Part shown: piece after piece, positions 15,503 through 17,554 of the stretch
Numbering within the stretch: position 1 is the first letter of the stretch
Layout of the letters: each line of letters begins with the position of its first letter
IMG/VR virus record: IMGVR_UViG_2855689977_000003
Length of the DNA: 20,305 nucleotides
Direction: 5' to 3' (one strand)
Source of the DNA: an uncultured virus (IMG/VR IMGVR_UViG_2855689977_000003)
Lineage: Duplodnaviria > Heunggongvirae > Uroviricota > Caudoviricetes
Notes under the pieces: generated by a model
Databases searched by the model: none
Told to the model about the DNA's origin: nothing
What the model saw: only the letters and a program-made list of their open reading frames with translations
Program-made: the position numbers and the translations under genes

Positions 15503-16236
15503 CCTGGAGAAAGGGCCAGCCGTGGCGGCGCGTCCACAGCCTGGATCGGCTCAACGAGCAGATCCGGGCGGCGTACCCGCGGGCCGTGCCGCCGGCTACC
15601 CCGGCGACAGCGTGGGGCAGCCTCGCCGACGACGCGCACAGCAGCGACAGCGACCACTTCCCGCACTACTACGCGGCGCTGGGCAAGGTCGCCGTGGTGT
15701 GCGCCGGGGATTTCCCCCACGCGCCGGAGCTGGGGCTCGACTTCGGCGAGGCCGCCGAGGCGCTACGCCTCAGCAAGGACCCACGCATCAAGTACGTGAT
15801 CTTCGACGGGCGGATGTTCAGCTCGTACGCCGCCCACGGGTATGCGCCGTACACCTGGCGGCCCTACTCGGGCAAGGACATGCACCGCACCCACGGGCAC
15901 ATCAGCACCGTGGCCACCGCCGCGGCGGACGACCCGCGAGACTGGCAGATTGGAGAGGACGACATGCCGATCACCGACGCCGACGCCGTGAAGATCGCGC
16001 GCGCGATGGTCAACCAGAAGGTGGGCGGCTCGTCGTCCCCTACAGTCGGCGAGCTGTTGCAGGCGCTGGAGCCGGCGATCGCCCGGGAGGGCACGAACCC
16101 GACCGAGCTGGCCGCCGCCCTAGCCGGCCTGCCGCAGGTGGACCCGGCGAAGCTGGCGGCGCAGATCGCCTCACTGCTGCCCGCCACGCAGGTCAAGCAG
16201 CTCGCCGACGAGCTCGCCCGCCGTCTCGCGTCGTGA
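15499..16236 (+). CDS. Endolysin (Zn-peptidase M15-like catalytic domain)
   Basis: AGGAGG RBS before ATG 15499; SDHFP...VCAGD...RIKYVIF...WRPYSG..MHRTHGHIS (H, D, HxH ligands); helical C-terminus. Confidence 0.8.
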   Translation: MTWRKGQPWRRVHSLDRLNEQIRAAYPRAVPPATPATAWGSLADDAHSSDSDHFPHYYAALGKVAVVCAGDFPHAPELGLDFGEAAEALRLSKDPRIKYVIFDGRMFSSYAAHGYAPYTWRPYSGKDMHRTHGHISTVATAAADDPRDWQIGEDDMPITDADAVKIARAMVNQKVGGSSSPTVGELLQALEPAIAREGTNPTELAAALAGLPQVDPAKLAAQIASLLPATQVKQLADELARRLAS

Positions 16237-16565
16237 GCCTTCAGCAGTGGGCCGGGGCCAGCATCATCCTCGGCGTCATCCTCACCGCCGTCACCCTCGC
16301 GGTGATGATCGGAAAGCCGCTGCGCAGGCTCGCGAAGCAGAACGATGAGTTCCGTGAGGACTGGTACGGCACGGCGGCGCGGCCGGGCCGGCCGGCTGTG
16401 CTCGGCGTGCCGGAACGGCTCGCGCGGCTCGAGCAGCAAGCGACCGGCCGCGACGGAGCGCTCGCGCAAGCGGTCGCCGCGCTGCGTGAGGACGTCGGCG
16501 CGACCCTGCTCCGCGTCGAGACGCGCCTCGACGACCACATCAGGACCCATCACAGCGGGGTCTGA
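16233..16565 (+). CDS. Lysis-cassette membrane protein (1 TM plus coiled coil)
   Basis: GTGA overlap with the lysin; TM ASIILGVILTAVTLAVMIG; FREDWYG..ARPG...GVPERLARLE; ends RLDDHIRTH. Confidence 0.75.
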   Translation: MSLQQWAGASIILGVILTAVTLAVMIGKPLRRLAKQNDEFREDWYGTAARPGRPAVLGVPERLARLEQQATGRDGALAQAVAALREDVGATLLRVETRLDDHIRTHHSGV

Positions 16566-16603
16566 CGGCAACGGTGGTCCCGGTCGACCACCGCGTCCCG
16601 TCA
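16563..16603. terminator. Hairpin between convergent stop codons, possibly a bidirectional terminator
   Basis: Inner stem CGGTGGTC/GACCACCG (16572-79/16586-93), outer stem TGACGG/CCGTCA; no U-tract. Confidence 0.5.
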
Positions 16604-16960
16604 CCGCTCGCCGAGGGCCTTGAGCAGGCTCATCCGGTCGATGCCTACCGCCCTCGCGGCGCCGGCCTTCGGGTAGCCGTGGCGGACCATCATGACGGCG
16701 ATGGTCTCGGCGACCACGTACGCCTCCCGCTCTCGGAGGCGGGCGTCGATGAGCGCCCGGTTGGCGTCCTCGGCGCTGGTCTCGCCGAGCAGGTACTGGA
16801 CGACGGCGGACAGGGCCGCGTGCCGCTCGGGCTGCTCATCAGGGTCGGGGTAGCGCTCGTCGACGCGCTGCCACTGCTCGGCGAACATCTCGATTTGCTC
16901 GGGGGTCATCTCGCCGGCGGCCGGGCCGAGCCAGGTCAGCATTCCGTCGGTGATCTGCAT
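16601..16960 (-). CDS. Helical protein with C-terminal helix-turn-helix (putative repressor/antitoxin), 119 aa
   Basis: GAGGAG RBS overlapping the upstream gene end, ATG 16960; C-terminus GYPKAGAARAVGIDRMSLLKALG is HTH-like. Confidence 0.8.
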   Translation of the reverse strand: MQITDGMLTWLGPAAGEMTPEQIEMFAEQWQRVDERYPDPDEQPERHAALSAVVQYLLGETSAEDANRALIDARLREREAYVVAETIAVMMVRHGYPKAGAARAVGIDRMSLLKALGER

Positions 16961-16965
16961 GGTGG

Positions 16966-17304
16966 TCACTCCTCGTCGAAGTCGGGGCCGTCGGTGCAGC
17001 AGCCGTGCAGGCAGGGCAGGGTCTCGCCGCCGACGCTGCGGGCGAAGCGGTCGCCTTCGTAGGTGCGGTGCGCCTCGGGCGCGTGGAAGATGGCGATCTC
17101 GCTGGCGGCCTGGCGGTAGAGGGTGCTGGCGTAGCCGTTGCCCTGATGCGCGGCCGGGGTCTCGACCTGCGCGATCTCGCCGGTCTCGGGGTCCACCCAC
17201 AGCTTGGAGACGGTCTCGCCGTCGATCACGAGCGACCACCGGTGAGCCAGGTCGTCGTGCTCGTCGTATCGGGCCATGTCCCGGATGATCTGCCGCTCGC
17301 TCAT
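16966..17304 (-). CDS. Minimal GNAT-family acetyltransferase
   Basis: IAQVETPAAHQGNGYASTLY matches acetyl-CoA binding motif A (Q/RxxGxA); downstream TYEGDRF; C-terminal CLHGCC and acidic tail. Confidence 0.8.
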   Translation of the reverse strand: MSERQIIRDMARYDEHDDLAHRWSLVIDGETVSKLWVDPETGEIAQVETPAAHQGNGYASTLYRQAASEIAIFHAPEAHRTYEGDRFARSVGGETLPCLHGCCTDGPDFDEE

Positions 17305-17342
17305 GTAGATGAGTCTACAGGCAGACTGTAGGTCTGTCTACA
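17304..17342 (-). promoter_or_regulatory. Leaderless promoter with two palindromic operators
   Basis: Minus strand TAGACA(17340-35)-N17-TAGACT(17317-12)-N7-ATG; TGTAG-N6-CTACA at 17304-17319 and 17327-17342. Confidence 0.75.
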
Positions 17343-17356
17343 CCCGAGGCGAGGAA

Positions 17357-17554
17357 TCACGTGCCGTGCTGGTGGTCCGGGTCGTACACCACCTCACCGC
17401 ACTCCCGGCACCGCCAATACCGCACCGTCCACCGGCAGTCCGGGCAGCCCGTCGTGCCCGGCGACCACTCGTCGTGCCCTTCCAGGCAGGGGGTGGGCCG
17501 CCACTCCTGCCACACCCGCTGACCCTTGCGGGTCACCCATTCACCGGACACCAC
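17357..17554 (-). CDS. Small Cys/Trp-rich Zn-ribbon-like protein (65 aa)
   Basis: CLEGH...CPDC...CRECG...H; GTG start preceded by TACGGT-N6. Confidence 0.6.
   Translation of the reverse strand: MVSGEWVTRKGQRVWQEWRPTPCLEGHDEWSPGTTGCPDCRWTVRYWRCRECGEVVYDPDHQHGT

What the first reader, a model, noticed from the sequence alone, without database searches (positions are those of the whole stretch)
16601..17342. Autonomous GNAT + HTH two-gene module inserted antisense in the lysis cassette: candidate reverse-order toxin-antitoxin or defence system
Seen: a 112-aa protein with GNAT motif A (HQGNGYAS) sits 5 nt upstream of a 119-aa helical protein with a C-terminal HTH. The pair has its own promoter, twin palindromes and a downstream hairpin. 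Established: characterised GNAT toxins (AtaT, TacT, ItaT, KacT) are about 160-180 aa and follow an RHH antitoxin. Here the GNAT is minimal, comes first, carries a CLHGCC/acidic tail and pairs with an HTH. Inference: this is a self-regulated lysogen-expressed module, either a new TA type, an anti-phage or anti-defence acetyltransferase, or an HTH cassette with a swappable upstream cargo gene.
Basis: partly seen in the sequence, partly recalled or inferred. Interest (0 to 1): 0.8.

Follow-up and report, generated by a model that had tools for sequence, protein, structure and literature searches.

The report
Self-repressed phage cassette with swappable enzyme
A prophage carries a small acetylating enzyme under a repressor that probably binds twin DNA palindromes in its own promoter, and the same repressor family looks like the unidentified protein that reads the repeated regulatory motifs of well-studied mycobacterial phages.

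Summary
The anatomy is real: a 112-aa GNAT (fold confirmed), a 119-aa HTH protein 5 nt downstream, a predicted leaderless promoter covered by two TGTAGA-N4-TCTACA palindromes, and a hairpin. A toxin-antitoxin pair is not the best reading. The palindromes travel with the HTH, not the GNAT. Upstream of 60 HTH homologues sat this GNAT (26), an ADP-ribosyltransferase-like gene (17), other genes (7) or nothing (10), with no cargo signal on the HTH tree. The HTH is a full-length homologue of cluster K mycobacteriophage gp36 (ZoeJ; HHalign 98%), and the palindrome pair has the build of the cluster K ESAS motifs, whose binding protein a 2024 paper calls unclear. The residue after 'DR' in the recognition helix tracks operator base 4: Met with A, Leu with T. 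This holds at distant sites in five cluster K genomes (A in 51 of 54 half-sites, T in 49 of 54). Best reading: an autorepressed, probably lysogen-expressed accessory cassette whose cargo here is a minimal RimI-like acetyltransferase of unknown target. Binding, expression and toxicity are untested, and a reverse-order toxin-antitoxin pair is not excluded.

The parts
16966..17304 (-). Minimal GNAT acetyltransferase, 112 aa (cargo). Motif A Q54-x-x-G57-x-A59; no helices between strands 1 and 2; net charge -13; Cys-rich acidic tail of low model confidence
16601..16960 (-). Predicted autorepressor, 119 aa: acidic N-terminal three-helix bundle, long helix 63-93, C-terminal HTH with D108-R109-M110; homologue of cluster K gp36 ('LamD-like' in GenBank)
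17304..17319 (.). Proximal palindrome TGTAGA-N4-TCTACA (perfect); covers the -10 box and ends on the A of the GNAT start codon
17327..17342 (.). Distal palindrome (one mismatch), 23 bp from the first; covers the -35 box
17312..17340 (-). Sigma-70-type promoter-like site TAGACA-17-TAGACT; its spacing to the ATG implies a leaderless transcript (inferred)
16969..16974 (-). GAGGAG ribosome-binding site for the HTH gene, inside the last codons of the GNAT (translational coupling inferred)
16563..16603 (-). GC-rich hairpin between the HTH stop and the convergent gene 16233-16565; likely terminator, no U tract

Best explanation
A portable, negatively autoregulated accessory cassette of actinobacterial phages. 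RNA polymerase starts a leaderless message at the GNAT ATG (inferred). The HTH protein, last in the operon, dimerises through its long helix and binds the two palindromes over -35 and -10, holding expression low and steady in the lysogen (inferred from co-occurrence and covariation; binding not shown). The first gene is exchangeable cargo. Here it is a minimal RimI-like GNAT that most likely uses acetyl-CoA to acetylate a basic protein target of the host or of a competing phage (fold shown; target inferred). The same repressor family, with the same kind of site, is predicted to be the protein that binds the ESAS motifs of cluster K mycobacteriophages. I put the repressor-operator part at about 0.9, the ESAS link at about 0.75 and 'cargo is not a toxin held by the HTH' at about 0.65.
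For: The twin site lies just upstream in loci with GNAT, ART-like, unrelated or no cargo; a twin was found for 55 of 73 motif rows scanned. It is replaced by other palindromes in L030 and L034, where the GNAT has other HTH partners. Cargo on a tree of 60 HTHs: GNAT 18 changes against 19.6 shuffled (137 of 500 as low), ART-like 14 against 15.0 (160 of 500). Close HTH pairs with different cargo are 81-91% identical in the N-domain, and no column separates the cargos (92 of 300 shuffles as high). HTH family against ZoeJ gp36: probability 98%, E 3e-13, 102 columns; gp36 homologues in 239 phage records, 236 named Mycobacterium, TM4 included. Helix-operator match next to the gene: xRM gives A in 183 of 192 half-sites (143 of 152 without loci picked by the operator pattern), DRL gives T in 12 of 12. 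At distant sites, half-sites 2-4: A in 18 of 18 (Yasnaya_Polyana), 23 of 24 (Aminay), 10 of 12 (Boilgate), all DRM; T in 22 of 24 (ZoeJ), 27 of 30 (Pixie), both DRL. One record has three twin sites and one HTH match. Best PDB hits of the wider GNAT profile are ribosomal-protein alanine acetyltransferases (E 7e-5, 1e-3).
Against: No binding, expression or activity was measured. The GNAT is nearly always next to this HTH: 31 of 38 distinct loci, and 14 of 18 among loci fetched with GNAT queries, which also fits a toxin-antitoxin pair. The HTH stands without cargo in 10 of 60 loci, while the enzymes rarely lack a regulator, the asymmetry expected of an antitoxin. The cluster K phages are related, so the Met/Leu match rests on few independent switches. 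L112 pairs T sites with Gly, not Leu, and Anaya (NRL) has mixed sites, so it is no simple one-residue code. The tree has 118 columns, its bootstrap had not settled, and all four labels together are slightly clustered (9 of 200 shuffles as low). This genome has no second twin site, so a regulon is not shown here.
Confidence: 0.6

Rival explanations
1. Reverse-order type II toxin-antitoxin pair with a promiscuous antitoxin: the GNAT (or the ART-like swap) poisons an essential target, and the HTH both binds it through the N-terminal bundle and represses the operon; the role would be prophage maintenance or abortive defence.
For: Coupled two-gene operon with autoregulation; GNAT adjacent to the HTH in 31 of 38 loci and ART-like gene in 18 of 23; both main cargos are group-transfer folds used by toxins (established knowledge); HTH residues 69-114 superpose on the antitoxin RpnA-S (7TH0, Z 6.6, rmsd 1.4, 46 aligned); the N-bundle is well conserved.
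Against: No cargo-linked signal in the HTH. GNAT, ART-like protein and HTH N-domain are all acidic (-13, -16, -9). The model lacks the helices between strands 1 and 2, whereas the review describes the GNAT fold with four helices. GNAT and HTH are separated by two insertion-sequence-like genes (recognised by eye) in L088 and by an antisense ORF in L093. The domain also occurs, often repeated, in 1,200-4,700-aa proteins. Cluster K homologues have no enzyme upstream. The RpnA-S match has Z below the tool's noise level for helical models and covers only a common long-helix-plus-HTH shape.
Confidence: 0.22
2. The cargo enzymes tune the repressor itself: the acidic GNAT acetylates conserved lysines (K98, K114), or the ART-like protein modifies R109, so that operator binding follows acetyl-CoA or NAD levels.
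For: Two unrelated acidic modifying enzymes replace each other in front of one basic HTH; K98, R109 and K114 are conserved in 111, 119 and 104 of 120 rows. Overexpressed cluster K homologues are mildly to moderately toxic (Amelie gp32, Hammy gp36, Waterfoul gp38; passages), which an upstream modifier could blunt.
Against: The HTH works without an enzyme in cluster K and in other loci; non-enzymatic cargos occur; Adephagia gp36 was non-toxic; the GNAT occurs without this HTH in 6 of 38 loci.
Confidence: 0.1
3. The cargos inactivate small molecules: the GNAT acetylates a polycation (aminoglycoside or polyamine) and the Arr-like swap modifies another metabolite, protecting the phage from chemical defences of antibiotic-producing hosts.
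For: Polyamine and aminoglycoside acetyltransferases are among the tied best structural hits (Z 8.6 and 8.4); the alternative cargo's best named ESM Atlas match is Arr-ms at 0.95; the enzyme is acidic. That actinomycete aminoglycosides inhibit phages is recalled, not checked here.
Against: The top Z-scores are tied with protein acetyltransferases (ESCO1 Z 8.5, rmsd 2.8); the sequence profile prefers RimI-type enzymes; the missing helices remove the usual small-molecule pocket (inference).
Confidence: 0.08

Closest known systems
ESAS motifs and gp36 ('LamD-like' HTH, PHROG 2311) of cluster K mycobacteriophages (Pope 2011, PMC3203893; Freeman 2024, PMC11373665)
   Same: Pair of palindromes with 6-bp half-sites and 4-bp centre over a SigA-type promoter; full-length homologous HTH whose own gene sits behind such a pair, near the lysis genes. 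Sites of K4 and K7 phages nearly equal the window's, several ending on the A of an ATG.
   Different: Here the site is single in the genome, has no SAS, and drives an enzyme gene placed before the HTH. In cluster K the HTH is first in its operon and the sites are spread over the right arm. The papers read do not link gp36 to ESAS.
GNAT-RHH toxin-antitoxin systems (AtaRT, TacAT, ItaRT, KacAT)
   Same: GNAT with the R/Q-x-x-G-x-A/G motif in a coupled, autoregulated two-gene operon.
   Different: 112 aa and acidic, without the helices between strands 1 and 2; enzyme first; partner is an HTH with a helical bundle, not RHH; partner exchangeable; none of these toxins is named among 26 PDB profile hits.
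RimI-like GNATs of phage polyvalent proteins (Iyer 2017, PMC5512222)
   Same: RimI-like sequence neighbours; the domain recurs in very large proteins, one with an Arr-type ART domain as well; the paper reports GNAT beside ART and solo versions in Actinobacteria (passages).
   Different: Here a solo gene under its own repressor, not a virion-borne polyprotein; identity with either of the paper's two families was not tested.
RpnA-S intragenic antitoxin of E. coli (PDB 7TH0; bioRxiv 10.1101/2023.05.02.539157)
   Same: Long dimerising helix plus HTH-like bundle superposes on residues 69-114.
   Different: RpnS is made from inside its toxin gene and blocks it by oligomerising; here the protein is a separate gene with an extra N-domain and a matching operator.

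Membership tests
GNAT superfamily | Central beta-sheet with motif A helix | tested here: met
   Model pLDDT 88; VIA-align and Foldseek lists dominated by GNATs; ESM Atlas 0.98
GNAT superfamily | R/Q-x-x-G-x-A/G acetyl-CoA loop conserved | tested here: met
   Q54 in 70, G57 and A59 in 78 of 78 rows
GNAT superfamily | Acetyl transfer activity | not testable with these tools
   needs an assay
GNAT-RHH toxin-antitoxin (AtaRT type) | Upstream RHH antitoxin | tested here: not met
   Partner is downstream, all-helical, with a C-terminal HTH
GNAT-RHH toxin-antitoxin (AtaRT type) | Toxin belongs to the tRNA-acetylating GNAT clade | tested here: inconclusive
   None named among the structural rows shown or the 26 profile hits; absence from such lists does not exclude it; no tree with these toxins was built
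Type II toxin-antitoxin in general | Cognate antitoxin specific to its toxin | tested here: not met
   Cargo label random on the HTH tree; 81-91% identical N-domains with different cargos. A promiscuous antitoxin would also fail this test
Type II toxin-antitoxin in general | Toxicity, rescue and direct binding | not testable with these tools
   no complex prediction or assay was available for this window
Cluster K gp36 / PHROG 2311 HTH family | Full-length homology, bundle plus HTH | tested here: met
   HHalign 98%, E 3e-13, 102 columns, 30% identity; PHROG E 3.8e-15
ESAS motif | Two palindromes of 6-bp half-site, 4-bp centre, spacer of 4-13 bp, over a SigA-like promoter | tested here: met
   definition; half-site TGTAGA as in K4 and K7 sites
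ESAS motif | Linked SAS GGGATAGGAGCCC and several copies per genome | tested here: not met
   No SAS, the site abuts the ATG; single twin in the genome. It is ESAS-like, not an ESAS by the 2011 definition
ADP-ribosyltransferase fold (alternative cargo in relatives, not in the window) | ART fold with catalytic triad | tested here: inconclusive
Known anti-phage systems (PADLOC 2.0) | Profile match | tested here: not met
   0 families at E 0.1

The most novel reading that the evidence does not exclude
The gp36-type HTH is the ESAS-binding regulator of cluster K mycobacteriophages and the core of a wider actinophage repressor-operator module with a helix-residue/operator-base code. In Micromonosporaceae and related hosts one such protein also tames two unrelated modifying enzymes (a minimal GNAT and an ART-like protein) that act as interchangeable lysogen-expressed toxins or defence effectors.
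Probability: 0.2. Interest if true: 0.9.

Novelty: new variant of a known kind. Interest (0 to 1): 0.72.

Why it matters
The ESAS motifs were described in 2011, and a 2024 paper states that the identity of their regulator is unclear. This module points to a specific, already annotated gene with homologues in 239 phage records, TM4 and ZoeJ among them, and predicts which base each variant prefers, so one gel-shift experiment can settle it. It would also explain the subcluster differences in ESAS consensus, and why TM4, which lost its integration module, keeps its ESAS sites. Separately, the twin palindrome is a handle for finding lysogen-expressed accessory genes, and two recurring cargos are uncharacterised modifying enzymes.

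Tried and rejected
Pfam gave no hit above cut-off and NCBIfam and PADLOC no hit for either protein. Fold search of the HTH model found no whole-protein match (best Z 6.6). No TA-type GNAT was named in the fold lists; this is inconclusive. A scan for a leaderless TGTTGA twin in viral contigs found 0; without the ATG it found 13 stretches in 8 records, all cluster-K-sized, 7 with a DRL HTH and 1 with no match, so this check is not independent of cluster K kinship. HHalign of the ART-like family against an Arr-bearing protein gave nothing. No RNA holder was listed for the locus; no evidence either way. No complex model could be obtained. The GNAT was found in 2 of 400 family genomes and 0 of 400 phylum genomes searched, the HTH in 9 of 400: rare and mobile. 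An RNA structure role for the palindromes is unlikely (z -1.5). The endolysin and holin labels could not be confirmed. Three look-ups of earlier scan findings returned nothing. Literature searches for a named ESAS-binding protein found none; the ZoeJ paper (Dedrick 2019) is not held and was not seen, and its GenBank record already notes gp36 as 'putative transcription factor', so a prior suggestion there or in unseen supplements cannot be ruled out.

Full report
Context. The window is part of a siphovirus-like prophage: portal, capsid and tail-tube domains score above Pfam cut-off, an excisionase-like gene lies upstream and a tyrosine-recombinase fragment downstream. The nearest named homologues of both proteins come from Micromonospora and relatives. 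The two genes lie on the minus strand among plus-strand late genes; that these are lysis genes is a positional reading only.

The first ORF (17304-16966) gives 112 aa, the second (16960-16601) 119 aa, 5 nt apart. The first folds as a GNAT: pLDDT 88, strands at 4-12, 19-27, 30-37 and 43-48, helices at 58-69 and 82-91; the best VIA-align rows are acetyltransferases tied at Z 8.0-8.6. It has no helices between the first two strands and a net charge of -13. Q54, G57 and A59 of motif A are kept in 70, 78 and 78 of 78 rows. The Cys-rich tail is modelled poorly and is missing in some distant relatives. The second protein is a three-helix bundle, a long helix and an HTH (PHROG 2311). Two palindromes TGTAGA-N4-TCTACA, 23 bp apart, cover the only promoter-like site in the region. 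The proximal one is the only perfect copy in 9.24 Mb, and there is no other twin. It ends on the A of the start codon, which implies a leaderless message (inference). The downstream hairpin folds better than 198 of 200 shuffles.

The palindromes belong to the HTH. I fetched loci around HTH and GNAT homologues from genomes, viral contigs and metagenomes. The same twin site lies directly before the first gene whether that gene is the GNAT, a second family of about 118 aa, an unrelated gene, or the HTH itself. Where the GNAT has a different HTH partner (L030, L034) the site is replaced by other repeats. A scan of viral contigs with the twin pattern alone returned 21 stretches; in 13 the first or second gene matched the HTH profile, and three stretches lie in one record that has a single HTH match. 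A motif scan found a twin for 55 of 73 rows; the 18 misses include truncated loci, variant sites and two spurious motif matches.

The cargo is exchanged freely. Of 60 HTH homologues with a readable upstream region (duplicates and truncated loci left out), 26 follow the GNAT, 17 the second family, 7 other genes and 10 nothing. On the tree the GNAT label needs 18 changes (shuffled 19.6; 137 of 500 as low) and the second label 14 (15.0; 160 of 500); well-supported branches force at least 8 and 7. The tree is short (118 columns), its bootstrap had not settled, and all four labels together show slight clustering (9 of 200). L056 was labelled by its nearest gene although the second family sits one gene further up. 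Close pairs with different cargos share 81-91% identity in the N-domain, and no column separates the two cargos better than shuffles (92 of 300). The second family is probably an ADP-ribosyltransferase fold: ESM Atlas 0.95 to Arr-ms, 162 of 256 features, with invariant R and S and a nearly invariant E. Pfam, PDB, PHROG and one HHalign test gave nothing, so this stays a lead. One locus carries both enzymes in one gene run without this HTH (L148).

Toxin-antitoxin or not. For: coupling, autoregulation, the GNAT next to the HTH in 31 of 38 distinct loci (14 of 18 among loci fetched with GNAT queries), HTHs that stand alone, and a match of residues 69-114 to the antitoxin RpnA-S (Z 6.6, rmsd 1.4). 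Against: no co-evolution, like charges on both proposed partners, insertions that separate the genes in L088 and L093, other partners for the GNAT, repeats of the domain in very large proteins, and a profile whose best solved relatives are RimI-type protein acetyltransferases, with no TA toxin named in 26 hits. Iyer 2017 (passages) places polyvalent-protein GNATs in the RimI-like clade, often beside ART domains, and infers protein substrates. Makarova 2009 (passages) lists GNAT-Xre pairs but judged them unlikely TA systems; GNAT-RHH pairs were later shown to be toxins (review passages), so that judgement carries little weight. I put a reverse-order TA pair at about 0.2.

The unexpected link. 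The HTH matches cluster K mycobacteriophage gp36/37; HHalign with ZoeJ gp36 gives 98%, E 3e-13 over 102 columns. ZoeJ gp36 has homologues in 239 phage records, TM4 included at 95.5%. Each homologue inspected (ZoeJ, Larva, Pixie, Anaya, Unicorn, Aminay, Boilgate, Yasnaya_Polyana) sits behind a palindrome pair. Pope 2011 (section 15 read) named these pairs ESAS, gave TGTTGA-N4 as the half-site in TM4 and Pixie, noted subcluster differences and suggested an unknown DNA-binding protein. Freeman 2024 (passages) found SigA-like promoters in them, saw genes 36-38 expressed in lysogens, and called the regulator's identity unclear. The 2025 Yasnaya_Polyana paper (passages) reports sites ending on the first base of the start codon, found no ESAS in Boilgate, and calls their role unverified.

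A covariation test. The residue after D/N/S-R in the recognition helix tracks base 4 of the half-site. Beside the gene, Met goes with A in 183 of 192 half-sites (143 of 152 without loci picked by the pattern) and DRL with T in 12 of 12. The harder test uses distant sites, scanned with that base left free, in right-arm stretches of six cluster K genomes (shuffles gave 0-1 twins). Half-site 1 is mostly T in all, as it overlaps the -35 TTGACA. In half-sites 2-4 the DRM phages have A in 18 of 18 (Yasnaya_Polyana), 23 of 24 (Aminay) and 10 of 12 (Boilgate; one site counted twice) and never T; the DRL phages have T in 22 of 24 (ZoeJ) and 27 of 30 (Pixie). Anaya (NRL) is mixed. Several K4 and K7 sites are nearly the window's operator, ATG overlap included, and Boilgate has such sites although none were reported. 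Limits: these phages are kin, so the independent switches are few, and L112 pairs T sites with Gly.

How it most likely works. Shown: the genes, the folds, the site, their co-occurrence, the exchange of cargo, the homology and the covariation. Inferred: the HTH dimer binds both palindromes and represses its own leaderless operon; the cassette is expressed at a low level in the lysogen, as the cluster K homologues are; the GNAT acetylates a basic protein of the host or of a rival phage. Unknown: the target, and whether the enzyme is toxic.

Novelty. The parts are known kinds: a GNAT, an annotated phage HTH family, an ESAS-like site. In the searches made I found no report of the enzyme-first cassette or of gp36 as the ESAS binder. 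The ZoeJ paper and all supplements were not seen.

Noticed in passing
window 17357-17539 (-): Small ORF with CxxC pairs (weak zinc-ribbon Pfam hits, PHROG 12017 E 9e-4) ending 15 nt before the distal palindrome, on the same strand as the module.
   Followed up: no
L115:10934, 29621, 30464 (Boilgate, MZ274310): Twin TGTAGA/TGTTGA palindromes in the K8 phage for which a 2025 survey found no ESAS; one lies between genes 40 and 41.
   Followed up: partly
L001, L007, L019, L020, L110 downstream of the HTH: A second, unrelated GNAT-like gene of about 150-170 aa, and in several loci a 250-aa helical repeat gene, follow the HTH on the same strand; the operon may carry downstream cargo too.
   Followed up: no
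L148:1654-4400: A run of genes holds both the GNAT and the ART-like family, with other repeats upstream and no HTH of this family within 2.3 kb.
   Followed up: partly
L102:3088-3836 (Gordonia phage Finkle genes 31 and 30): An isolated phage carries the ART-like cargo plus HTH (TRRT helix) behind TGTACAC/TGTATAC palindromes: a ready experimental system.
   Followed up: partly
L034:5983-6927: GNAT appears fused in frame to a different HTH gene; the usual acidic end lies in another frame, so a frameshift or sequence error is likely.
   Followed up: partly
proteins P0227, P0233, P0264, P0287, P0281: Proteins of 1,300-4,700 aa hold up to nine stretches matching this GNAT; P0281 also has an Arr-type ART domain at its N-terminus.
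   Followed up: partly
L144:1844-2200 (-): [quoted passage not shown]
   Followed up: no
L063, gene upstream of the HTH: Cargo with a YIRFG...GVSVY pattern that by eye resembles another ART-like family.
   Followed up: no
Microbacterium cluster EF phages (PMC7302621, passages): Their ESAS is centred on GTAGAG, like the half-sites here; whether they encode a DRM-type HTH was not checked.
   Followed up: no
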